Below are positions 1-6,734 of a DNA stretch of 6,734 nucleotides, one piece after another (the stretch's first letter is position 1; the number at the start of each line of letters is the position of its first letter). The position numbers and the translations under genes are program-made. The DNA is taken from UHGV virus genome UHGV-0318484, one strand, 5' to 3'. The DNA comes from a virus. Below the pieces are notes generated by a model that saw only the letters and a list, made by a program, of their open reading frames with translations, did no database searches and was not told the DNA's origin.

Positions 1-501
1 ATTTCCGCCGCAGGTGAGTCTTGGCGGTAAAAATGTGGCCTGGCTGCACTCTGAAGTCACCGCATGGATGGCCGGGCGCATTGCCGGACGCAAACGGGGG
101 TACGACGCATGATGATGCCTGTTCTGCAAAAACTCCCTTTTTCTGGCTTGCCTTTTTCCGGCATTTGCGGATATAGTTTTTCCGTTGCCGCAAAATCGGC
201 AGCCGGGCGTGAGAACCCGAGTATGTTATCGGCGACATATGACGCGCCATGCGTCTTTTTTTGTGTCGCAATCAACGCCACAGAGCACCAGATTATGGTG
301 TGGCGTGTGGTTTGCCGTGCAGGTATGATCCTGTTCGCAATCGCATGTTATGCCTCTGAGTCAATGGTAGCTCAGGCGGGGCAGCCTCCGGGCTGGCCGG
401 TTTCCGATAACGCCGGTATTCTCACCCCCGTCTGGGCTATCGCCATCGAGCGTGAGAACTCCGGCGATAGCGTCATTTACGCTGTTATCGGAGGTTGCCT
501 T

Positions 502-699
502 ATGGCTACGACCCTTACCCCTTCACACCCTGAATTTGTCTTTGTGTTTGCGGCTGTCCGTCGCGCAGACCGTCATCCCCGTATCTGCATGCTTCGCACC
601 GTCGCCGGTGATGAACGCAGTGCCCGCCGTTCCCTTGTCCGTGACTATGTGCTCTCCCTTGCTGCCCGTCTGCCGGTGGTGGAGGTGTCCCGTGCGTAA
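502..699 (+). CDS. Hypothetical small protein, 65 aa ([65 protein letters not shown]); first gene of a two-gene coupled pair
   Basis: ATG at 502 preceded by GGAGG (490-494) with 7-nt spacing; in frame with the long track ORF 64-699, whose upstream part looks like non-coding read-through. Ends in tandem stops TAATAA (697-702). No recognisable family. Confidence 0.4.
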
Positions 700-979
700 T
701 AAAAAAGCCCCTCAGACCGTCTCAGCGCGTCATGACGCCCGTGAACACCTCAGCATTGAGGCTTATCATAAGCTCAACCGTGCCAGCGCCGTATCCCAGT
801 TTGTTGGGGGTGATTTGATTCACCGTGAACTCTCCGGCCTGCATCAGCTCTACATTCCGCATATTTTCAGCTACCTGAATGAAGATATTGATTTTGTGCT
901 GAATGAGCTGAAAGCCAAAGGCCTGTGCCGCGATTTTCTCGCCCAGCAGAAAGACCGGGGAGACAGGACGCATGTTTGA
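692..979 (+). CDS. Hypothetical protein, 95 aa, GTG start ([28 protein letters not shown]...[19 protein letters not shown]); second gene of the coupled pair
   Basis: GTG at 692 preceded by GGAGG (681-685) with 6-nt spacing; overlaps the upstream stop by 8 nt, suggesting translational coupling. This is the 3' part of track ORF 452-979, whose 5' part overlaps the better-supported frame of gene 502-699. Followed by an intrinsic terminator. Confidence 0.45.
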
Positions 980-986
980 TTTTCCC

Positions 987-997
987 CAGCTCCACCA
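987..997 (+). other. Possible att core: CAGCTCCACCA (CCAGCTCCACCA from 986), identical to the 3' acceptor end of tmRNA (ssrA)
   Basis: A 12-nt identity to the recalled E. coli ssrA 3' terminus, about 185 bp upstream of a P4-type integrase start. P4-family integrases recombine at the 3' ends of tRNA/tmRNA genes. The sequence upstream of 986 is not ssrA, so this is a core copy only. Confidence 0.3.
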
Positions 998-1030
998 CTT
1001 GCTCTTCCGGATACGTCCGGAGAAATCCTA

Positions 1031-1066
1031 AAAGCCCGCATGGCACAAGCTCTGCGGGCTTTTTTG
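1031..1066 (+). terminator. Rho-independent terminator
   Basis: Stem GCCCGCA (1034-1040) pairs with TGCGGGC (1053-1059), extended by flanking A/T pairs, followed by TTTTTT (1060-1065). Lies downstream of the 692-979 gene. Confidence 0.6.
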
Positions 1067-1110
1067 TGTCTACCATTGTCCGAGGATATCCAGCTAAATC
1101 CAGTGATTAT

Positions 1111-1160
1111 TGGTATACGTTTAGGTATACGGTAGGATGTATACCTAAACGCGTATACCA
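1111..1160. promoter_or_regulatory. Imperfect 20-bp inverted repeat with four GTATAC motifs, overlapping the presumed int promoter; candidate Int arm-type sites or operator
   Basis: TGGTATACGTTTAGGTATAC (1111-1130) and GTATACCTAAACGCGTATACCA (1139-1160) are reverse complements apart from a 2-nt insertion. GTATAC occurs at 1113, 1125, 1139 and 1153. The repeat lies 20-70 bp upstream of the int start. Confidence 0.45.
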
Positions 1161-1181
1161 ATTCATGAAGGAGCGGCCACA

Positions 1182-2393
1182 GTGGCAAGAACGACACGCC
1201 CCCTGACCAACACAGAAGTTCTGCGCGCTAAAGCGTTAGAAAAGGATCTAACGTTACATGATGGCGATGGCCTTTTTCTGCTCGTTAAAACGAACGGTAA
1301 GAAGTTGTGGCGTTTCCGTTATCAACGTCCAGCAACAAAACAGCGGACAATGATGGGGCTTGGTGCTTTCCCCGCCCTTTCACTTGCTGATGCTCGAAGG
1401 TTAAGAGCGGATTACCTTGCTTTGTTGGCTAATGGTATAGACCCACAAGTTCAAGCTGAATTTATCGAAGAACAACAACAGATAGCTCTAGACAGTATTT
1501 TTTCGACTGTTGCGACCAACTGGTTCCAGATAAAAAGCAAAAGCGTTACCCCTGATTACGCTAAAGATATATGGCGCTCACTGGAAAAAGACGTATTCCC
1601 TGCCATCGGGGAGATTCCTGTCCAGCAAATAAAAGCCCGAACACTAGTTGAAGCCCTTGAGCCAATCAAAGCTCGTGGAGCACTCGAGACAGTGCGCCGA
1701 CTTGTACAGCGCATTAACGAGATAATGATTTATGCCGTAAACACTGGTCTGATTGATGCCAATCCAGCATCAGGTGTTGGGATGGCCTTTGAAAAGCCCA
1801 GAAAACAAAACATGCCGACGCTGAGGCCAGAAGAATTACCAAAGCTGATGCGTTCTTTGTTCATGTCAAATCTGTCTGTTCCGACTCGCTGTCTCATTGA
1901 ATGGCAGCTTCTGACTCTAGTGCGTCCTGCTGAAGCTTCCGGTGCTCGATGGGCAGAGATCGATCTCGATGCAAAGCTCTGGATGATTCCAGCCGAACGG
2001 ATGAAGGCCAAACGAGAGCACATAGTTCCTTTATCCACGCAGGCATTAGAAATTCTAGAAGTGATGCAACCTATTAGCGCACATCGTGAGCATGTTTTCC
2101 CAAGCAGAAATGACCCTAAACAACCAATGAATAGCCAGACTGCGAATGCCGCGCTTAAGCGCATTGGTTATGGTGGGAAGCTTGTTGCTCATGGATTACG
2201 TTCTATAGCAAGTACAGCACTAAATGAAGCTGGTTTTAATCCGGACGTAATTGAAGCGGCACTTGCTCACAGTGATAAAAATGAAGTTCGAAGAGCATAC
2301 AATCGTTCAACTTACCTTGAACAACGTATAGACTTGATGAATTGGTGGGGTGAATTTGTGCACAACCGCCACCGCCTCATGCAAGCGATTTAA
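1182..2393 (+). CDS. int: P4-family tyrosine integrase (site-specific recombinase), 403 aa, GTG start
   Basis: AAGGAG (1168-1173) 8 nt before GTG at 1182. The N-terminus (LTLHDGDGLFLLVKTNGKKLWRFRYQRP) matches the P4-type integrase N-terminal DNA-binding domain. The C-terminus carries the HGLRSIAST box and a tyrosine in RRAYNRSTYLEQR, consistent with tyrosine recombinase catalytic residues. Tandem stops TAATAA. Confidence 0.92.
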   Translation: MARTTRPLTNTEVLRAKALEKDLTLHDGDGLFLLVKTNGKKLWRFRYQRPATKQRTMMGLGAFPALSLADARRLRADYLALLANGIDPQVQAEFIEEQQQIALDSIFSTVATNWFQIKSKSVTPDYAKDIWRSLEKDVFPAIGEIPVQQIKARTLVEALEPIKARGALETVRRLVQRINEIMIYAVNTGLIDANPASGVGMAFEKPRKQNMPTLRPEELPKLMRSLFMSNLSVPTRCLIEWQLLTLVRPAEASGARWAEIDLDAKLWMIPAERMKAKREHIVPLSTQALEILEVMQPISAHREHVFPSRNDPKQPMNSQTANAALKRIGYGGKLVAHGLRSIASTALNEAGFNPDVIEAALAHSDKNEVRRAYNRSTYLEQRIDLMNWWGEFVHNRHRLMQAI

Positions 2394-2420
2394 TAAGATT
2401 GCACAGCAAAGGAGTCTTAA

Positions 2421-3779
2421 ATGCCAAATAACTACCATCAATACATCGAAGACGTTAGTGATGATATAAAGACATGTCTTGAAGGAATGGGATGCCAACC
2501 CATACTTTTTGTTGGATCGGGATTAACCAAGAGATATCTTTCTGGCCCAAACTGGGAAGAACTTCTTCAGCAACTTGCTAATGAATGTCCTAACATCGAT
2601 AAAAGATTTGCCTATTATAAACAGAAATACCCCGAGTTGATTGATATCGGCAGTGTATTTTCTGATTCTTATAACGAGTGGGCATGGGGTGATGGAGAGA
2701 AAGAATTTCCAGCAGAGTTATTTGATGCAGGCAATGAGCCAAGTATTTATTTTAAATACAAAGTATCTAGTATTTTCAACTCATTGTTACAAGAAAAAGA
2801 AATCGTAAACAACGGTGAAATTGAACTTCTGAGAAAGATTCACCCTCATTCAATCATCACAACAAATTACGACAAATTACTTGAATCGATATATCCTGAG
2901 TTTACCCCCATTATAGGCCAAAAAATCCTTTACGCTAATCACGGTAGCATTGGTGAAATACTTAAAATACATGGTTGCTGCTCCACTCCTGAAAGCATAA
3001 TAATAAACCGCGATGACTACGATGACTTCATAAAGAAGAAGAAATATTTAAGCGCAAAACTGCTTACTTTCTTTGCTGAACACCCTCTTCTATTTATAGG
3101 TTACAGCGCAGAAGACTCGAACATAAAAAACATACTATCTGATATTGATGAACTACTTTCAGAAAATGGAGATGTCATTCCAAATATATACATTTTAGAA
3201 TGGACGAGCAAACAAAATGAAAGTGAATACCCACGCCGTGAACGGCTGATTCAAGTATCTGCAAACAAAAGCATTAGAATAAAAAGTATAGTAGCAAATG
3301 ACTTCTCTTGGGTATTTTCAGCGTTTGGCGCGAACAGAGCACTTGATAACATAAATCCCAAATTATTGAGGGCACTTTTAGCTCGCACTTACGATCTCGT
3401 CAGAACTGATATACCTCGCAATCCTGTCCAAGTTGATTACCGAGTTTTATCAAGCATTAGCGAGTCAGAAGGTGAATTAGCGAAATTATATGGTATCGCC
3501 ACATCGTCAGATGGTATGGCATTTAATGCCAGTTATCCTTTTACTTTAACCACGCTAGGGCAATCACTTGGTTTCAAAGGCTGGCATGATGCGAACAAAC
3601 TATTAGAAGTAGTTAAAAACATCACGAACGTAGACATCAAGACATTCGATAACAAATACCACTATGCAATAATGAACGGTGATGAGATTCAGTCCCATAG
3701 ATATTCAAACTATCTTCGAGAACTCCTCGAAAAGGTTAGGGATGGAGAGGAGTTTGAGTTAGGAATAAAGGCTCCATAA
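2421..3779 (+). CDS. SIR2-like (sirtuin/DHS-like NAD-binding fold) protein, 452 aa, with an unassigned C-terminal domain of about 200 aa; candidate NAD+-depleting anti-phage effector in the P4 int-cos hotspot
   Basis: AAGGAG (2409-2414) 6 nt before ATG; only 27 nt after the int stop. Motifs typical of defence-associated SIR2 domains (as in ThsA, DSR, SIR2-HerA): PILFVGSGLTKRY (Gly-rich NAD loop, aa 27-39), ITTNYD (Asn at about aa 149), KIHGC (His at about aa 184), LLFIGYSAEDSNI (aa 223-235). Markedly AT-rich compared with neighbours. Terminator follows. Confidence 0.85.
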   Translation: MPNNYHQYIEDVSDDIKTCLEGMGCQPILFVGSGLTKRYLSGPNWEELLQQLANECPNIDKRFAYYKQKYPELIDIGSVFSDSYNEWAWGDGEKEFPAELFDAGNEPSIYFKYKVSSIFNSLLQEKEIVNNGEIELLRKIHPHSIITTNYDKLLESIYPEFTPIIGQKILYANHGSIGEILKIHGCCSTPESIIINRDDYDDFIKKKKYLSAKLLTFFAEHPLLFIGYSAEDSNIKNILSDIDELLSENGDVIPNIYILEWTSKQNESEYPRRERLIQVSANKSIRIKSIVANDFSWVFSAFGANRALDNINPKLLRALLARTYDLVRTDIPRNPVQVDYRVLSSISESEGELAKLYGIATSSDGMAFNASYPFTLTTLGQSLGFKGWHDANKLLEVVKNITNVDIKTFDNKYHYAIMNGDEIQSHRYSNYLRELLEKVRDGEEFELGIKAP

Positions 3780-3807
3780 TTATTCATATAGCCTTACTAC
3801 TTTTTAT

Positions 3808-3830
3808 GGCCGCTTTAATAGCGGCTTTTT
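3808..3830 (+). terminator. Rho-independent terminator downstream of the SIR2-like gene
   Basis: Stem GCCGCT (3809-3814) pairs with AGCGGC (3820-3825), loop TTAAT, followed by TTTTT (3826-3830). Confidence 0.55.
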
Positions 3831-3966
3831 CACAGCATTATTCATGCTTCTAGCACGATATGATGAACCGCAATAATCATAGCTAACAGGATTAATTTAA
3901 AGCATTACTCCTCGACTGAAGCGTGCTGTCATGCGAAAAAAATTTAAACTACCACGTTAGCGCGCA

Positions 3967-3985
3967 GTGCTTTCCCCGCCTCGCC
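3967..3985 (-). other. cos site: 19-nt P2/P4 cohesive-end sequence (GGCGAGGCGGGGAAAGCAC on the minus strand)
   Basis: Plus strand reads GTGCTTTCCCCGCCTCGCC, the exact reverse complement of the recalled P2/P4 cohesive end. Position between the accessory region/int and psu matches P4 genome organisation (left end cos-accessory-int; right end sid-delta-psu-cos). Confidence 0.8.
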
Positions 3986-4087
3986 CGCCCGCTTTGCGGG
4001 GCGGTTTTAATGCAGTTGCACTGACACGCTCAGACCGCGCCGGGAATGGTGCGGTCTGCAGAAAATGAGGCAGGAAAACGCATGCAA

Positions 4088-4119
4088 AGCCATGCACCTT
4101 ATCGATGCATGGCTTTTTT
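4088..4119. terminator. Hairpin with flanking T/A tracts between cos and psu; possible bidirectional terminator
   Basis: 9-bp stem AGCCATGCA (4088-4096) pairs with TGCATGGCT (4106-4114), followed by TTTTTT on the plus strand; on the minus strand it is followed by TTTGCATGCGTTTT. Lies just 3' of psu. Confidence 0.5.
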
Positions 4120-4149
4120 CAGTAAAAACGGGCGGATTTTCGGGGAATT

Positions 4150-4722
4150 TTACACAGACTGACGTGATGCCAGTTGCGCACTTTTACGCGAAAAAATCAT
4201 GTTCTGCGCAGGGGTGAATTTTTCACGGCTGTCATCCACCGAAGCCGCGTCAGGCCTGAATCCGATGGCCGTTAAAATGTCGCTATCCTGTGCGGAATAA
4301 TTAATTTTTTCACCCTTCGCAAGCCAGGACAGGAGGGCTTCACGCAGGGCATCTGTGGCACGCTGTATGGCACAGTTTCGGGCAATGGCCGTCAGCTCAC
4401 TGTAGCCCATCAGCTCCGGTGCCAGTGCCGCCGCCAGTGCTGTGCCGTGCTGCTGCATAAAATCATTCAGCCGGTCGCGGATGCTGATGTGCTGAACGGC
4501 TTCATGCGAACGAATATAACGACCGGCGGCCTGATTCACCTGCCATTTTCTGACTTCGATAATATTGCGTAATTCGTCCAAGCGACTGACGTTTCTGCCT
4601 TCTCCTGACAGAAGCCGCAGATATTCCTGTTCGGCCGCAGCCAGCTCATTTTTGCGTTGCAGCCATGCTGCTTTGTTATTCTGACAGGTGTCAAAGGCCT
4701 GCTGTAAGGCTGTGCTTTCCAT
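4150..4722 (-). CDS. psu: Psu, polarity suppression protein (P4 capsid decoration protein and Rho antagonist), 190 aa
   Basis: Length and sequence (MESTALQQAFDTCQNNKAAWLQRKNELAAAEQEYLRLL...SRQSV) match recalled P4 Psu; third gene of the sid-delta-psu late operon reading toward cos. Confidence 0.92.
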   Translation of the reverse strand: MESTALQQAFDTCQNNKAAWLQRKNELAAAEQEYLRLLSGEGRNVSRLDELRNIIEVRKWQVNQAAGRYIRSHEAVQHISIRDRLNDFMQQHGTALAAALAPELMGYSELTAIARNCAIQRATDALREALLSWLAKGEKINYSAQDSDILTAIGFRPDAASVDDSREKFTPAQNMIFSRKSAQLASRQSV

Positions 4723-4795
4723 CGTTATCTCTTTCTCATCATGCTGAAGAATAAAAATACGGTGTGCGGCGACGGCCGGTGTTAACCGGCAGCCC

Positions 4796-5296
4796 TCATT
4801 CCAGACGCAGCGAATATGATTGTGTTTTTAACCGTACTGGCGGCAGTTCCTGTTTTTCATGCAGGCGTTCTGCCAGTTCGTCCGGTGTGACCGGGCGGAC
4901 AATGAAGCGGTTGATGGTCTGAAGCGTTTTAAACACCAGACCACATCCCGGATCCGTGCACACATAAAAACGCTCGGTGACTTCCTGAGACAGACGCCGC
5001 GATGTTCTTGACAGTGCAAGGCCTTTACATCTCCGACAACAATATCCGGTAACAAGCATTCTTTTCGGGCGTTTCATACTACCGGAGGCTGACGTCAGTG
5101 AATCGCGGTATCTCTGTTTGCCTGAAATGTATTCCATTCCTGAATCTTTACAGTCAGAGAAAAAGCTTTCACTCGCTTCAAATGTCGCAGAGCAATAAAT
5201 ATTCCGGCACTGTGCAATCATTATCTTGGTGCCATCGTCCATGAAATGTGCGCGACGGGTGTGAGCAACATGTCCACACGACGGGCAGTAAATCAT
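4796..5296 (-). CDS. delta: Delta, late-gene transcriptional activator (tandem Ogr-like zinc-finger domains), 166 aa
   Basis: Two Ogr-like Cys motifs (CPSCGH...CRNIYC and CCRRC...CTDPGC); length matches P4 Delta. Its start overlaps the sid stop in ATGA (5293-5296). Confidence 0.92.
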   Translation of the reverse strand: MIYCPSCGHVAHTRRAHFMDDGTKIMIAQCRNIYCSATFEASESFFSDCKDSGMEYISGKQRYRDSLTSASGSMKRPKRMLVTGYCCRRCKGLALSRTSRRLSQEVTERFYVCTDPGCGLVFKTLQTINRFIVRPVTPDELAERLHEKQELPPVRLKTQSYSLRLE

Positions 5297-6027
5297 GACA
5301 GCAGTCCTCTGGCCTTAAGCTCTGCTCCCTGCTGGTCTATTTTGTCCTGCCACACCTTGCGCTGTGCCGGTGTGCCTGCCACCTCATAATCCATGTGCGG
5401 GAGTGTTGCCGCTGACAGTCCGGTCAGCCGGAGAACCGGCTCGCCGGTGAGGCTGATTTGCATCTGTTTTATTTTCTGTTCCAGCGATGATTTCACCTGC
5501 TGCATGACAGCCTTTTCCGGCGCGACGTAGCCCTGATGGCCGGTGGTGTTGGCGAGCGGATTTTCCTGTACCAGGATACTCAGATGCATTGCCCGGACAA
5601 GCGCCTCACAGGTTTCATTCAGGGCGTGTTCCAGCTCATGCTCTGCATACAGACTCAGAAGGTGATGATGTGCCTTCCGGTAGGCGGTGGCCGTGCTGTC
5701 ACACGCCCCTTTCAGGCGTTCACGTTCGAAATTCAGCACCACGGCCAGATTGTCATATTCCTGTACCAGCTCCCGGCGTGCCACGCGCTCAATGTGGCGC
5801 TGTTTCAGCTCGTCGCTCAGGACACCACCGGCTGCACGAAAGGCCGTGCGCCAGTCGTCAGCGTCGTTTCCGTCGGCCTGCGCCAGCGCATTTTTTTCCT
5901 GCTCTGCCCGTTCAATGGCCGTGATGGTCTCATCCATCAGGCGGGCGTTCTCAAGATGAGCGGCTCTGGCCTTTTCCAGTTGTGCCAGCGCGGGTTGCAG
6001 ATATTCAGGGATGGTGTTGTCAGACAT
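5293..6027 (-). CDS. sid: Sid, capsid size-determination (external scaffold) protein, 244 aa
   Basis: Sequence MSDNTIPEYLQPALAQLEKARAAHLENARLMDET... matches P4 Sid. Start placed at ATG 6027 (GAGGAG 7 nt upstream) rather than the in-frame GTG at 6045 used by the ORF track. Confidence 0.88.
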   Translation of the reverse strand: MSDNTIPEYLQPALAQLEKARAAHLENARLMDETITAIERAEQEKNALAQADGNDADDWRTAFRAAGGVLSDELKQRHIERVARRELVQEYDNLAVVLNFERERLKGACDSTATAYRKAHHHLLSLYAEHELEHALNETCEALVRAMHLSILVQENPLANTTGHQGYVAPEKAVMQQVKSSLEQKIKQMQISLTGEPVLRLTGLSAATLPHMDYEVAGTPAQRKVWQDKIDQQGAELKARGLLS

Positions 6028-6061
6028 TTTCCGGCTCCTCGTCACTTCAGGTTAAGAAAAT

Positions 6062-6117
6062 TGTGACGTACACCGGACAACAACACGACGCATTGCAGAT
6101 GTGCCAGCCCTGACACA
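6062..6117 (-). promoter_or_regulatory. Psid-type late promoter with two TGT-N12-ACA activator (Delta/Ogr) dyads
   Basis: TGTGCCAGCCCTGACACA (6100-6117) is centred about 81 nt upstream of the sid ATG, consistent with a -55 activator site. A second dyad, TGTGACGTACACCGGACA (6062-6079), is centred 38 bp closer. P2/P4 late promoters are defined by TGT-N12-ACA near -55. Confidence 0.6.
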
Positions 6118-6196
6118 GGAGACTCATCCTCAGACCGGCAAGCCAGGAAAAGGTCGCAGGAAAAACCGGCTTACTGTTTGTTTTTTTATATTTTAC

Positions 6197-6300
6197 TGTT
6201 CACCTCTGTTCACCATAAGAAAAAAGATAAGTAATACAGTAAGTTAAATGGTGAACAATCGCAGTAATGACTGTTCACCGTCTGTTCACCACTGTTCACC
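6197..6300. repeat. Iteron cluster: five direct and one inverted exact copy of TGTTCACC; candidate replication origin (P4 ori/crr-type alpha-binding sites)
   Basis: TGTTCACC at 6197, 6207, 6272, 6283 and 6293; the inverted copy GGTGAACA at 6250; degenerate copies (TGTTTACT, TGTTTGTT) flank. Spacing of 10-11 bp between neighbours. The octamer matches the recalled type I iteron bound by P4 alpha primase-helicase. Confidence 0.7.
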
Positions 6301-6404
6301 CGCTCATGGACTTTTTGTGCTGTTTACTACTGTTTGTTTTTATTAATTCGCCGGGAATGAATAAGAAGAAACGATTTGTATTTCACTATAAAAATTACGA
6401 ATTG

Positions 6405-6434
6405 CTTTAAGTGGCTTTAAATGACTTTAAGTGG
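6405..6434 (+). repeat. Three tandem 10-bp units (CTTTAAGTGG / CTTTAAATGA / CTTTAAGTGG); possible regulator-binding array upstream of the rightward late promoter
   Basis: Direct reading of the sequence; helical-turn periodicity; ends 26 bp before the TGT-N12-ACA at 6460. Confidence 0.3.
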
Positions 6435-6459
6435 GAATGAACAAAAAACACACAGTCAT

Positions 6460-6477
6460 TGTAAGGCGGCCGGAACA
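6460..6477 (+). promoter_or_regulatory. TGT-N12-ACA dyad; candidate activator site of a PLL-type late promoter driving the AlpA/Vis-like gene
   Basis: TGTAAGGCGGCCGGAACA; a -55 site here would put the transcript start near 6523, about 57 nt before the ATG at 6580. Divergent from Psid, as in P4. Confidence 0.4.
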
Positions 6478-6579
6478 AATCCCCCCTGTTGCGTCTGCCA
6501 AAAAGATTCACAAAATAAAGCGCTACCCGAAGCCGGACGGACTTATCCGGTGCTGTATGGACATTAACGAGGTAGCCCG

Positions 6580-6734
6580 ATGCAAGCTGTTTTTTCTTCC
6601 CCGTCTCCCTCCCCTGTGACGCCACTGATGCCGCTGCCGGACATCACGCAGGAGCGTTTTTTACGTCTGCCGGAAGTGATGCACCTGTGCGGCCTGTCAC
6701 GTTCGACCATCTATGAACTCATCCGTAAGGGGGA
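6580..6734 (+). CDS. AlpA-family HTH protein (Vis/excisionase-like regulator), 5' partial; runs off the window end
   Basis: GAGG (6569-6572) 7 nt before ATG at 6580. Translation MQAVFSSPSPSPVTPLMPLPDITQERFLRLPEVMHLCGLSRSTIYELIRKG contains the AlpA-type helix-turn-helix signature. In P4 the vis gene occupies this position. Confidence 0.8.
   Translation, partial: MQAVFSSPSPSPVTPLMPLPDITQERFLRLPEVMHLCGLSRSTIYELIRKG

What the first reader, a model, noticed from the sequence alone, without database searches (positions are those of the whole stretch)
960..1180. Possible att core matching the tmRNA 3' end, without an upstream tmRNA gene
CCAGCTCCACCA (986-997) is identical to the last 12 nt of ssrA and lies about 185 bp upstream of the int start, where a P4-type attachment core is expected. 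The sequence to its left is not ssrA; it encodes two small ORFs and a terminator. An integrated, int-proximal junction should carry the complete target gene, so this looks like an attP-type site (episomal or phage-derived sequence), a tandem-island junction, or a different integration target, not a simple attL.
Basis: partly seen in the sequence, partly recalled or inferred. Interest (0 to 1): 0.5.

Follow-up and report, generated by a model that had tools for sequence, protein, structure and literature searches.

The report
Hybrid attachment site, truncated P4-like satellite
The 12-base match to the end of the tmRNA gene is a real integrase attachment core, but here it is fused to an internal gene of a P4-like phage satellite, closing a 6.7-kb circle that has lost its replication genes; it is a rare by-product of a well-known integration system.

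Summary
CCAGCTCCACCA (986-997) is unique in the window, equals the last 12 nt of E. coli ssrA, lies 184 nt upstream of a CP4-57/P4-type integrase gene, and has no tmRNA gene upstream.

The window is a circular permutation of a 6,734-bp P4-like satellite: int, SIR2 cargo, cos, psu-delta-sid, ori, alpA, CI RNA and eps. It lacks ORF151, ORF106, the alpha primase, crr and the far-side (P) arm of attP.

Bases 991-1181 are the canonical int-proximal arm. It carries the last 7 nt of tmRNA, a terminator and arm-type repeats. A genuine 10.2-kb circular relative (L061) has the same 12-mer in its attP.

The left flank, however, is the first 19 nt of ORF151. That site shares only CCAGC with the att core, so this is a hybrid attP and not a canonical attP, an attL or a tandem-island junction.

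The join lies inside the 8-nt segment where this integrase family crosses over. The same ORF151 site is fused to the att core at the far end of alpha-less islands in three complete E. coli genomes.

Best reading: integrase-mediated secondary-site recombination, making a truncated derivative. The biology is known and the detail is modestly new.

The parts
692..979 (+). eps (helper derepression protein) gene, the last intact gene before the junction
   Evidence: Pfam PF25738 Derepression, E=7.7e-51. Collinear with P4 epsilon.
966..990 (+). Secondary (pseudo-att) site: GGACGCATGTTTGATTTTCCCCAGC, spanning the end of eps and the first 19 nt of ORF151 (ATG at 972)
   Evidence: In 45 full-length relatives and in P4 itself it continues CCGGTGAG... 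as ORF151. It is the best match in the 10.4-kb island to the 25 nt of ssrA ending at CCAGC (17/25) and ranks first of 38 CCAGC sites (12/20 in the left flank, P about 9e-4).
984..990 (+). Presumptive crossover/overlap segment, CCCCAGC (canonical CGCCAGC)
   Evidence: 983 (T) and 985 (C) are of the ORF151 type and 991 (T) is of the att type, so the switch lies in CCAGC (986-990). Canonical attL and attR share CCGCCAGC. Published excisions take the next T out with the circle. The BCE049, 2013C-4974 and OkiPb01713 hybrids have G at the position of 985 and T at the position of 983.
986..997 (+). The reported 12-mer: CCAGC (shared) plus TCCACCA (the last 7 nt of mature tmRNA, supplied by the element)
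   Evidence: The same 12-mer is in the attP of the circular element L061.
998..1071 (+). Int-proximal (P') arm: a small hairpin (1005-1022) and an intrinsic terminator (stem 1030-1063, then a T run). In the integrated state this replaces the ssrA trailer and terminator.
   Evidence: Terminator scan. Fold -32.8 kcal/mol, z=-3.97. Identical sequence follows ssrA in L001. 986-1500 is 100% identical to the attL-int region of wlxctx60.
1109..1161 (.). P'-arm arm-type repeats: TTGGTATACGTTTAGGTATACGG (1109-1131) and the inverted GTATACCTAAACGCGTATACCAA (1139-1161), just upstream of the int RBS. Inferred Int arm-binding sites overlapping the int promoter region.
   Evidence: Inverted repeat I9. The same motifs are at the same place in L061. 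A third copy sits about 60-75 nt on the far side of the core in L061 and L001, but it is missing from the window, where GGTATAC occurs only at 1112-1159. P4 has the analogous arm repeats annotated. Binding itself is inferred.
1182..2393 (+). int: tyrosine integrase of the CP4-57/P4 type
   Evidence: Pfam Arm-DNA-bind_3, Phage_int_M and Phage_integrase. 63% identical to K-12 IntA. The exact protein is found next to ssrA in L001, L004, L007 and others.
2421..3779 (+). SIR2_2-domain cargo gene in the int-cos hotspot
   Evidence: Pfam PF13289, E=4.3e-27. The hotspot is described in PMC9122126.
3966..3984 (-). Sealed cos site (reverse complement of GGCGAGGCGGGGAAAGCAC)
   Evidence: Matches the joined end and start of the linear P4 record and P2-type phages.
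4150..6027 (-). psu (4150-4722), delta (4796-5296) and sid (5293-6027): capsid-hijacking operon
   Evidence: Pfam Psu and Ogr_Delta. 97% identical to P4.
6197..6300 (.). P4 ori type-1 iterons (TGTTCACC, five direct and one inverted). The partner element crr is absent from the window.
   Evidence: Motif positions. P4 annotation of ori and crr. crr-like iterons lie only beyond alpha in L001 and L061.
6580..6734 (+). alpA/vis (excisionase-type HTH regulator), 5' part. It continues at 1-112.
   Evidence: An 88-aa ORF reads across the window's end and start. Pfam Phage_AlpA, E=7.3e-21. L040 and L041 are contiguous across this point.
1..112 (+). alpA/vis, 3' part
171..447 (+). P4 immunity RNAs: c4-a1b1 targets (171-223), isrK (184-261) and C4/CI antisense RNA (360-447)
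   Evidence: Rfam hits above gathering score.

Best explanation
The interval is a hybrid attachment site (attP') on a circular, truncated P4-like satellite that targets the tmRNA gene. The element's integrase is a relative of CP4-57 IntA and is assisted by AlpA/Vis. It normally recombines a 15-nt core, CCGCCAGCTCCACCA, shared by attP and the 3' end of ssrA. Strand exchange falls within CCGCCAGC. The element's int-proximal arm then supplies the last 7 nt of tmRNA (TCCACCA, including the U of the G3:U70 pair), a new terminator, and arm-type Int sites in front of int. In the window that int-proximal half is intact (991-1181). The other half is not the normal far arm (arm-type repeat, crr, alpha). 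It is the start of ORF151, whose sequence GGACGCATGTTTGATTTTCCCCAGC mimics the ssrA side of the core. I propose that Int recombined the true core, in attL or in an excised attP, with this internal pseudo-core. That reaction looped out or left behind the 3.7-kb ORF151-ORF106-alpha-crr-P-arm segment and produced a 6,734-bp circle: int-SIR2-cos-psu-delta-sid-ori-alpA-CI-eps. Shown here: the anatomy, the canonical sites, the position of the join, and its recurrence in other genomes. Inferred: that Int catalysed the join, that the window is a free circle and not a tandem or nested repeat, and the 7-nt overlap.
For: (1) The window is a closed cycle. alpA reads across the ends, and L040/L041 are contiguous there. 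(2) The rotated window is collinear with ssrA islands from the 12-mer to ORF151 codon 6 (L001 20001-26698, 97.7%). The three-way alignment shows the internal site ...TTTTCCCCAGC|CCGGTG, attL ...CCCGCCAGC|TCCACCACTTGC and the window ...TTTTCCCCAGC|TCCACCACTTGC. (3) The canonical sites are defined. The reconstructed empty attB covers at least 80% of the query in 2524 of 5426 genomes, at 100% identity over 400 nt in the listed top hits. T-containing attR sites exist (L062-64). The attP of the circular 10,182-bp element L061 reads TTCAGACTCCGCCAGCTCCACCACTTGC, with arm repeats on both sides. P4 has the same architecture. (4) Crossover position. attL and attR share CCGCCAGC. Excision of CP4So removes the next U from ssrA, confirmed by sequencing (PMC5148205). 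CP4-57 excision leaves a one-bp change in ssrA (PMC3105296). The window's switch point, CCAGC, lies inside that 8-nt segment of a roughly 10-kb element. (5) The partner site is the best ssrA-core mimic in the island. (6) Recurrence. BCE049, 2013C-4974 and OkiPb01713, plus IMG/VR contig L067, have alpha-less islands at ssrA whose far end is the same ORF151 start fused to GCCAGC plus flank, with different cargo and two different flanks. In these the base at -6 is G (att type), while in the window it is C (ORF151 type), and -8 is T in all. That is the pattern expected if -7 to -1 is a heteroduplex overlap. It is not what use of the longest microhomology would give. (7) The integrase has arm-binding and catalytic domains and is 63% identical to IntA.
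Against: No experiment links Int to this join. The pseudo-site resembles the core only on its left side: the 7 nt to the right of CCAGC (CCGGTGA versus TCCACCA) match at just 1 of 7 positions. It has no arm-type repeat nearby, which lambda-type excisive recombination would normally need. The ORF151 start is conserved in P4-likes that use other integrases, and in P4 itself, so the mimicry is a coincidence of coding sequence and not an evolved site. The exact junction was found in none of the collections searched, so it rests on this one sequence. The window shares its first base and its first 707 nt with a MEGAHIT unitig (L044). The cycle may therefore have been read from an assembly graph, and a tandem or nested arrangement with a collapsed repeat would look identical. 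The psu-eps module is closest to satellites at other loci (L040/L041), which allows a mixed-strain path.
Confidence: 0.65

Rival explanations
1. Integrase-independent illegitimate recombination (slippage or microhomology-mediated joining) between two CCAGC pentamers 6.7 kb apart. This would give a deletion circle or a tandem duplication of the ssrA-proximal 6.7 kb.
For: Only 5 nt are strictly shared at the join. Similarity extends 25 nt to the left, further than a core-binding site would need. The pseudo-site has no arm sites. A tandem duplication would assemble as a cycle.
Against: The att-side breakpoint falls inside the 8-nt canonical crossover segment of a roughly 10-kb element, which by my estimate has a chance of order 1e-3. 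The same two partners are joined in three other genomes. There the switch lies to the left of the -6 mismatch, where only 1 nt of microhomology exists, instead of in the 6-nt perfect run CCAGCC.
Confidence: 0.15
2. The cycle is not a free molecule but an assembly-graph path. One version: an ssrA-type satellite integrated into the ORF151 pseudo-site of a second, resident P4-like satellite, with the two near-identical psu-eps modules collapsed. Another: a mixed-strain path. The junction is real, but the 6.7-kb circle is not.
For: Window 1-707 is co-terminal with and identical to a MEGAHIT unitig from ERZ27239565 (L044). Window 1-990 is 100% identical, and 3958-6734 is 99.3-99.4% identical, to satellites with other integrases (L040/L041). 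No int-SIR2 island in 5,426 complete genomes has this psu-eps module at better than 98.5% overall. Integration of attP into a core-like secondary attB is the least demanding Int reaction and gives exactly this attL'-type junction.
Against: A nested arrangement would add branches at 990 and about 3958 that should break a unitig-based contig. No such nested structure exists in 5,426 complete genomes. P4-like modules are routinely mosaic. The integrated alpha-less islands show that the truncated element exists in its own right.
Confidence: 0.12
3. Canonical attP of an intact excised or plasmid-state P4-like satellite.
For: Circular permutation. The 12-mer and the whole int-proximal arm are identical to those of canonical sites.
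Against: The canonical attP (L061, P4) has an arm-type repeat, crr and alpha on the far side. The window has none of these, and its left flank is ORF151 codons 1-6.
Confidence: 0.03
4. Tandem-island junction, chance match, or sequencing chimera.
For: Tandem arrays at ssrA are common, and their internal junctions lack a full ssrA gene (L002, L005, L047-L057).
Against: Tandem junctions carry another element's far end plus at least 20 nt of displaced ssrA 3' sequence, whereas here the flank is internal coding sequence. An exact 12-mer by chance is expected about 8e-4 times. A de Bruijn misjoin needs at least 20 shared bases and only 5 are shared. A random chimera would not land on the crossover segment, nor recur in finished genomes.
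Confidence: 0.05

Closest known systems
CP4-57 of E. coli K-12 (IntA/SlpA integrase, AlpA, attL within ssrA, attR annotated as 'psaA')
   Same: Same target and same core: K-12 attL is CCGCCAGCTCCACCA and attR is CCGCCAGC-CCACCA. The integrase is 63% identical. An AlpA-type regulator is present. The element supplies the tmRNA 3' end and terminator. Excision changes one base of ssrA (PMC3105296; Kirby et al. 1994, from my own knowledge).
   Different: CP4-57 is a 22-kb cryptic island without psu, delta, sid or cos, and its int-proximal arm sequence differs (AAATTCTCC...). The window is a P4-type satellite, is circular, and its far half-site is non-canonical.
Satellite phage P4 attP (target leuX)
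   Same: Same layout: int, arm repeats overlapping the int start, core, arm repeats, crr, alpha. The rest of the window is 97% identical to P4 over psu-delta-sid-ori-vis-cI-eps. cos is identical.
   Different: P4's core is GAGTCCGGCCTTCGGCACCA (tRNA-Leu) and its integrase is a different lineage. P4 retains ORF151, ORF106, alpha and crr.
CP4So of Shewanella oneidensis (P4-like IntA/AlpA island in ssrA)
   Same: Excision takes the U of the G:U wobble pair out of ssrA, which places the crossover 5' of that base, as inferred here (PMC5148205).
   Different: 36-kb mosaic prophage with a 94-nt att repeat (PMC8682789). No secondary-site product is described.
Secondary attachment sites and aberrant site-specific products of lambda-type integrases (textbook knowledge, not tested here)
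   Same: Recombination of a true att core with a partly matching sequence, where the overlap identity is incomplete and the products are resolved to either parental base.
   Different: Here the secondary site lies inside the element itself, so the outcome is self-truncation and not integration elsewhere or specialised transduction.
Alpha-less 'Type B' P4-like satellites (de Sousa & Rocha 2021, PMC8628076)
   Same: Six of the seven core components are present, with alpha missing. Such variants are reported as fairly frequent.
   Different: That study did not address how alpha is lost. Here the loss has a precise breakpoint at the att core.

Membership tests
attP of a CP4-57/P4-type tyrosine integrase targeting the ssrA 3' end | Core identical to the 3' end of the target gene, next to int | tested here: met
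   12 nt are identical to the ssrA end, 184 nt upstream of int. The canonical core is 15 nt; the window matches 13 of 15, with C for G at 985 and T for C at 983.
attP of a CP4-57/P4-type tyrosine integrase targeting the ssrA 3' end | Adjacent integrase with an arm-type DNA-binding domain and a tyrosine recombinase catalytic domain, related to ssrA-specific integrases | tested here: met
   Pfam PF13356, PF22022 and PF00589. 63% identical to IntA. The identical protein sits next to ssrA in many genomes.
attP of a CP4-57/P4-type tyrosine integrase targeting the ssrA 3' end | Arm-type repeats on the int-proximal (P') side of the core | tested here: met
   GGTATAC-containing repeats at 1109-1161 are conserved in position in L001 and L061. 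Int binding itself cannot be tested here.
attP of a CP4-57/P4-type tyrosine integrase targeting the ssrA 3' end | Arm-type repeat and element far-end sequence (crr, alpha) on the P side of the core | tested here: not met
   No GGTATAC motif outside 1112-1159, no crr, no alpha. The left flank is the ORF151 start. L061 and P4 show what should be there.
attP of a CP4-57/P4-type tyrosine integrase targeting the ssrA 3' end | In integrated relatives the core is repeated at the other end of the element | tested here: met
   Exact in L062-L064. T-less or further shortened in 21 other far ends.
attL of an island integrated in ssrA | Complete target gene immediately upstream of the core | tested here: not met
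   No tmRNA by ARAGORN or Rfam. The upstream sequence is eps/ORF151.
Tandem-island junction at ssrA | Left flank is the far end of another element, ending in a displaced ssrA 3' fragment | tested here: not met
   Real examples carry 20-45 nt of ssrA 3' sequence preceded by foreign prophage ends (L002, L047-L057). The window shares only CCAGC and continues into the satellite's own coding sequence.
P4-like satellite (seven core components of de Sousa & Rocha) | int, psu, delta, sid, alpA and eps present in P4 order | tested here: met
P4-like satellite (seven core components of de Sousa & Rocha) | alpha primase-helicase present | tested here: not met
   No ORF of that kind in 6.7 kb. It is present in all full-length relatives. 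This makes the window 'Type B' in the sense of PMC8628076.
Secondary-site (pseudo-att) recombinant of a tyrosine integrase | Breakpoint inside the canonical crossover segment | tested here: met
   The switch lies within CCAGC of CCGCCAGC. The literature places the crossover 5' of the T.
Secondary-site (pseudo-att) recombinant of a tyrosine integrase | Partner sequence resembles the core | tested here: met
   17/25 identity to ssrA, top-ranked in the island, on the left side only; 6 of 7 within the presumptive overlap.
Secondary-site (pseudo-att) recombinant of a tyrosine integrase | Independent recurrence at the same site | tested here: met
   BCE049, 2013C-4974, OkiPb01713 and L067, with different cargo and flanks and the alternative base at -6.
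Secondary-site (pseudo-att) recombinant of a tyrosine integrase | Formation depends on the integrase | not testable with these tools
   Needs genetics or biochemistry.

The most novel reading that the evidence does not exclude
The 6.7-kb element is not a dead-end by-product but a functional 'mini-satellite'. In this reading it cycles between an ssrA-integrated form (as in BCE049, 2013C-4974 and OkiPb01713) and this circular form, using a hybrid attP that lacks the P arm. It keeps cos, psu-delta-sid, ori, immunity and a defence gene, and it borrows the alpha primase from a co-resident P4-like satellite and capsids from a P2-like helper, making it a parasite of a parasite. The same hybrid left half-site next to two different right flanks would then reflect movement, not repeated in-situ deletion.
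Probability: 0.1. Interest if true: 0.6.

Novelty: new variant of a known kind. Interest (0 to 1): 0.3.

Why it matters
The attachment system itself is well known: CP4-57/P4-type integrases at the tmRNA gene. Three details appear to be new. First, a specific internal sequence of P4-like satellites, the ORF151 start, acts as a recurrent secondary partner of the ssrA-type att core. That gives a precise, probably integrase-made route to the alpha-less satellites already noticed in surveys. Second, the window together with the four integrated hybrids narrows the crossover of this integrase family to the 7 nt CGCCAGC immediately 5' of the tmRNA G3:U70 uridine. This fits the published loss of that U on excision. 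Third, on the practical side, a circular contig with an att-core match can be a truncated derivative and not a complete mobile element. None of this overturns current understanding.

Tried and rejected
(1) I searched for the window's exact junction in IMG/VR, JGI metagenomes and GTDB genomes, in complete E. coli genomes, and in INPHARED and PLSDB. It was not found. (2) I searched for a predicted T-less canonical attP and a T-containing one with the AAACT arm. Neither was found; the real attP (L061) turned up only with a pattern limited to the P' side. (3) I held an interim model in which the crossover lies in CCACCA, 3' of the T, because every attR first seen lacked the T in several flank contexts. 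I abandoned it after finding the T in the episomal attP, T-containing attR sites and the excision data for CP4So and CP4-57. The prevalence of T-less attR remains unexplained. The rare ASH-frame protein led only to partial contigs. (5) Scans for further C-type hybrids in IMG/VR gave only a synonymous variant of intact ORF151. (6) Williams 2003, Wang 2009 and Kirby 1994 are not held, and two look-ups failed on term length, so what I say about those papers is from memory. (7) I dismissed the weak Rfam hits as noise or shared flank: IsrM at 933-1065 (32.7 bits against a gathering score of 376), alpha_tmRNA and mir-297.
Full report
OBSERVATION. CCAGCTCCACCA occurs once in the window, at 986-997 on the + strand. 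It equals the last 12 nt of annotated ssrA in E. coli wlxctx60 (L001 20001-20012) and in K-12. The int gene starts at 1182, which is 184 nt downstream. ARAGORN and Rfam find no tmRNA gene in the window. The only correction is that the strong terminator (1030-1069) lies to the right of the 12-mer.

WHAT THE WINDOW IS. An 88-aa AlpA/Vis-type ORF reads from 6580 across the window's end into 1-112. Two independent contigs, L040 and L041, are contiguous across that point. The 6,734 bases therefore form a closed cycle.

The content is a P4-like satellite:
- alpA
- the P4 immunity RNAs: c4-a1b1, isrK and C4/CI
- the icd/ASH frame
- eps
- the junction
- int
- a SIR2_2 cargo gene
- a sealed cos site
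- psu, delta and sid
- the P4 ori iterons

Missing relative to P4 and to every full-length relative are ORF151, ORF106, the alpha primase-helicase, crr and the far-side arm of attP.

WHERE THE TWO SIDES OF THE 12-MER COME FROM. In 1,058 complete E. coli genomes the match to a probe covering 600-1500 starts exactly at 986 in the listed hits and overlaps ssrA plus an integrase. No genome has the 985/986 junction.

The rotated window is collinear with the island of wlxctx60 from the 12-mer to codon 6 of the ORF151 homologue (L001 20001-26698). The three sequences are:
- internal site: ...GGACGCATGTTTGATTTTCCCCAGC|CCGGTGAG...
- attL: ...GGACGCGGGTTCAACTCCCGCCAGC|TCCACCACTTGC...
- window: ...GGACGCATGTTTGATTTTCCCCAGC|TCCACCACTTGC...

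The 12-mer is therefore a fusion. CCAGC is common to both parents, and TCCACCA plus everything up to int is the element's int-proximal arm.

THE CANONICAL SITES OF THIS INTEGRASE.
- Joining the ssrA side of attL to the host side of attR reconstructs an empty attB. It covers at least 80% of the query in 2,524 of 5,426 genomes, and the listed top hits are 100% identical over the full 400 nt.
- K-12 CP4-57 has attL CCGCCAGCTCCACCA and attR CCGCCAGC-CCACCA, the latter annotated as 'psaA'.
- Some islands of the window's type have a complete second copy at attR, TTCAAACTCCGCCAGCTCCACCAATCATG (L062-L064).
- Most far ends lack the T or are shortened further.
- IMG/VR contig L061 is 10,182 bp and its two ends abut inside alpha, so it is a complete circular element. 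Its attP reads ...TTATTCAGACTCCGCCAGCTCCACCACTTGC....
- In L061 a GGTATAC arm-type repeat sits about 60 nt on the far side of the core, crr and alpha lie beyond it, and the same terminator and paired arm repeats lie on the int side. This is the P4 architecture.

The window has only the int-proximal half of that site.

WHERE THE CROSSOVER IS. attL and attR share the 8-nt block CCGCCAGC, followed by T or no T. Excision of the related CP4So leaves ssrA without that U, as confirmed by sequencing (PMC5148205). CP4-57 excision leaves a one-bp change (PMC3105296). The episome L061 carries the T. Exchange therefore occurs within CCGCCAGC, and the T belongs to the int-proximal arm.

In the window the last ORF151-type bases are T983 and C985 and the first att-type base is T991. 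The switch thus lies in CCAGC, inside that block.

IS THE PARTNER SITE SPECIAL? The ORF151 start is the best ungapped match in the 10.4-kb island, on both strands, to the 25 nt of ssrA ending at CCAGC (17/25). It ranks first of the 38 CCAGC sites (12/20 in the left flank; binomial P about 9e-4). It is conserved in P4 itself and in P4-likes that use other integrases. The resemblance is therefore a by-product of coding sequence and not an evolved site.

RECURRENCE. A synthetic probe for an integrated version, eps-TTTTCCCCAGC-TCCACCA-host flank, found strain BCE049. Its island reads ssrA-int-NACHT-psu-delta-sid-alpA-ASH-eps and then ...ATGTTTGATTTTCGCCAGCCTCATGATTGG..., which is host flank. That junction is unique among the 5,426 genomes.

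The G-type hybrid also occurs in IMG/VR contig L067 and in complete genomes 2013C-4974 and OkiPb01713. There it abuts a lambdoid prophage that in O145 strains sits directly at ssrA.

All these islands lack ORF151 through the P arm. The cargo differs (NACHT; DUF2326/ABC-3C). In all of them -8 is T (ORF151 type) and -6 is G (att type), whereas the window has C at -6.

A fixed pair of exchange points flanking a 7-nt overlap (CGCCAGC against CCCCAGC) predicts exactly this result. The single mismatch inside the overlap would be resolved either way. Joining by the longest microhomology (CCAGCC) would always give C.

MECHANISM PROPOSED. Int, probably with AlpA/Vis and IHF, recombined the true core with the ORF151-start pseudo-core. 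The true core could have been in attL on the chromosome or in attP on an excised circle. The product that carries int is the 6,734-bp cycle seen here. The reciprocal product carries ORF151-ORF106-alpha-crr-P arm.

Alternatively, the window could be the excised form of an already truncated island of the BCE049 kind that retains C at -6.

The circle has ori but lacks alpha and crr, and its att site lacks the P arm. Autonomous replication and efficient re-integration therefore look unlikely (inference from P4 biology; the annotation is).

RIVALS.
- Integrase-independent microhomology joining is disfavoured by the coincidence with the crossover segment, by the recurrence, and by the G-type products.
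- A graph-derived cycle remains possible. This could be nested or tandem satellites with a collapsed psu-eps repeat, or a mixed-strain path. Window 1-707 is co-terminal with a MEGAHIT unitig (L044), and the psu-eps module is closest to satellites at other loci. That would change 'free circle' to 'repeat junction' but would not change the nature of the join.
- Canonical attP, simple attL, a tandem-island junction, chance and a de Bruijn misjoin are each excluded by tested features (see the membership table).

COMPARISON AND NOVELTY. The system is the known CP4-57/P4-type integration module at the tmRNA gene. The cargo hotspot (PMC9122126) and alpha-less 'Type B' satellites (PMC8628076) are also known. 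What seems new is the recurrent, precisely placed self-truncation through an internal pseudo-att site, and the resulting delimitation of the crossover to the 7 nt 5' of U70. I rate it a new variant of a known kind, of modest interest (0.3).

UNRESOLVED. It is unclear why most attR copies lack the T, or more, immediately 3' of the overlap in several unrelated flank contexts. Experiments and the episome put that T on the side that should come from the host at integration.

Noticed in passing
L001 30445-30450; L023 573-586 (K-12 'psaA'); L002-L021, L031, L036, L037, L047, L059, L071 far ends: In attR the displaced tmRNA 3' fragment is shortened immediately after GCCAGC in most loci: CCACCA (9), CCA (5), CA (5), CCCCA (1), CCAC (1), against the full TCCACCA in 3. 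The T-less form occurs next to E. coli, Salmonella and tandem-island flanks. This is a deletion hot spot at the edge of the presumptive overlap. It would make excision yield a U70-less tmRNA and so penalise loss of the island.
   Followed up: partly
L066 12212-12245; L068 and L069 9017-9045; L067 (reverse strand) 17-50: Four integrated alpha-less P4-like islands at ssrA end in the ORF151 start fused to the att core, with G at -6. They have two different right flanks and two different cargo systems (NACHT; DUF2326/ABC-three-component).
   Followed up: yes
L061 (IMGVR_UViG_2600255186_000010), whole contig: A complete, circularly permuted 10,182-bp P4-like element with an ssrA-type integrase (91% nucleotide identity over int) and an intact attP. 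It appears to be an episomal or excised satellite captured in an isolate assembly.
   Followed up: partly
window 1-707 versus L044 (ENA ERZ27239565 k119_1027): A 707-bp MEGAHIT metagenome unitig is 100% identical to the window's first 707 bases and starts at the same base. This suggests that the window was read from an assembly graph of the same or a related sample.
   Followed up: partly
window 3958-6734 and 1-990 versus 986-3957: Modular mosaic. The int-SIR2 module is 100% identical to ssrA islands. The psu-to-eps module is closest (99.3-100%) to satellites that have other integrases at other chromosomal sites (L040, L041). The exact Sid protein was found only in such satellites (L024-L029).
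   Followed up: partly
L002 8520-8580; L047-L057 (left of the P' arm): The same int-proximal arm is preceded in many genomes by the far ends of at least five other prophage or island types, each carrying an ssrA 3' fragment of different length (about 20 to 45 nt). These are tandem arrays of elements that use different sublocations of the tmRNA gene.
   Followed up: no
window 2421-3779: A 452-aa SIR2_2-domain protein sits alone between int and cos, the known defence hotspot of P4-like satellites. The exact protein is widespread (listed in 1,523 index blocks) in E. coli and Salmonella islands.
   Followed up: no
window 933-1065: Partial Rfam hit to the Salmonella island sRNA IsrM (32.7 bits against a gathering score of 376). 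It probably reflects a shared int-proximal arm and terminator downstream of ssrA and not an IsrM gene.
   Followed up: no
window 676-687 and 987-998: GTGGTGGAGGTG (in the icd/eps overlap) is 92% complementary to CAGCTCCACCAC at the junction, 299 nt away. It is most likely a chance match.
   Followed up: no
whole window: Five copies of 6,734 bp make 33,670 bp, close to the size of a P2 genome (about 33.6 kb, from my own knowledge). A cos-bearing multimer could in principle fill a P2-sized head. This is numerology only.
   Followed up: no
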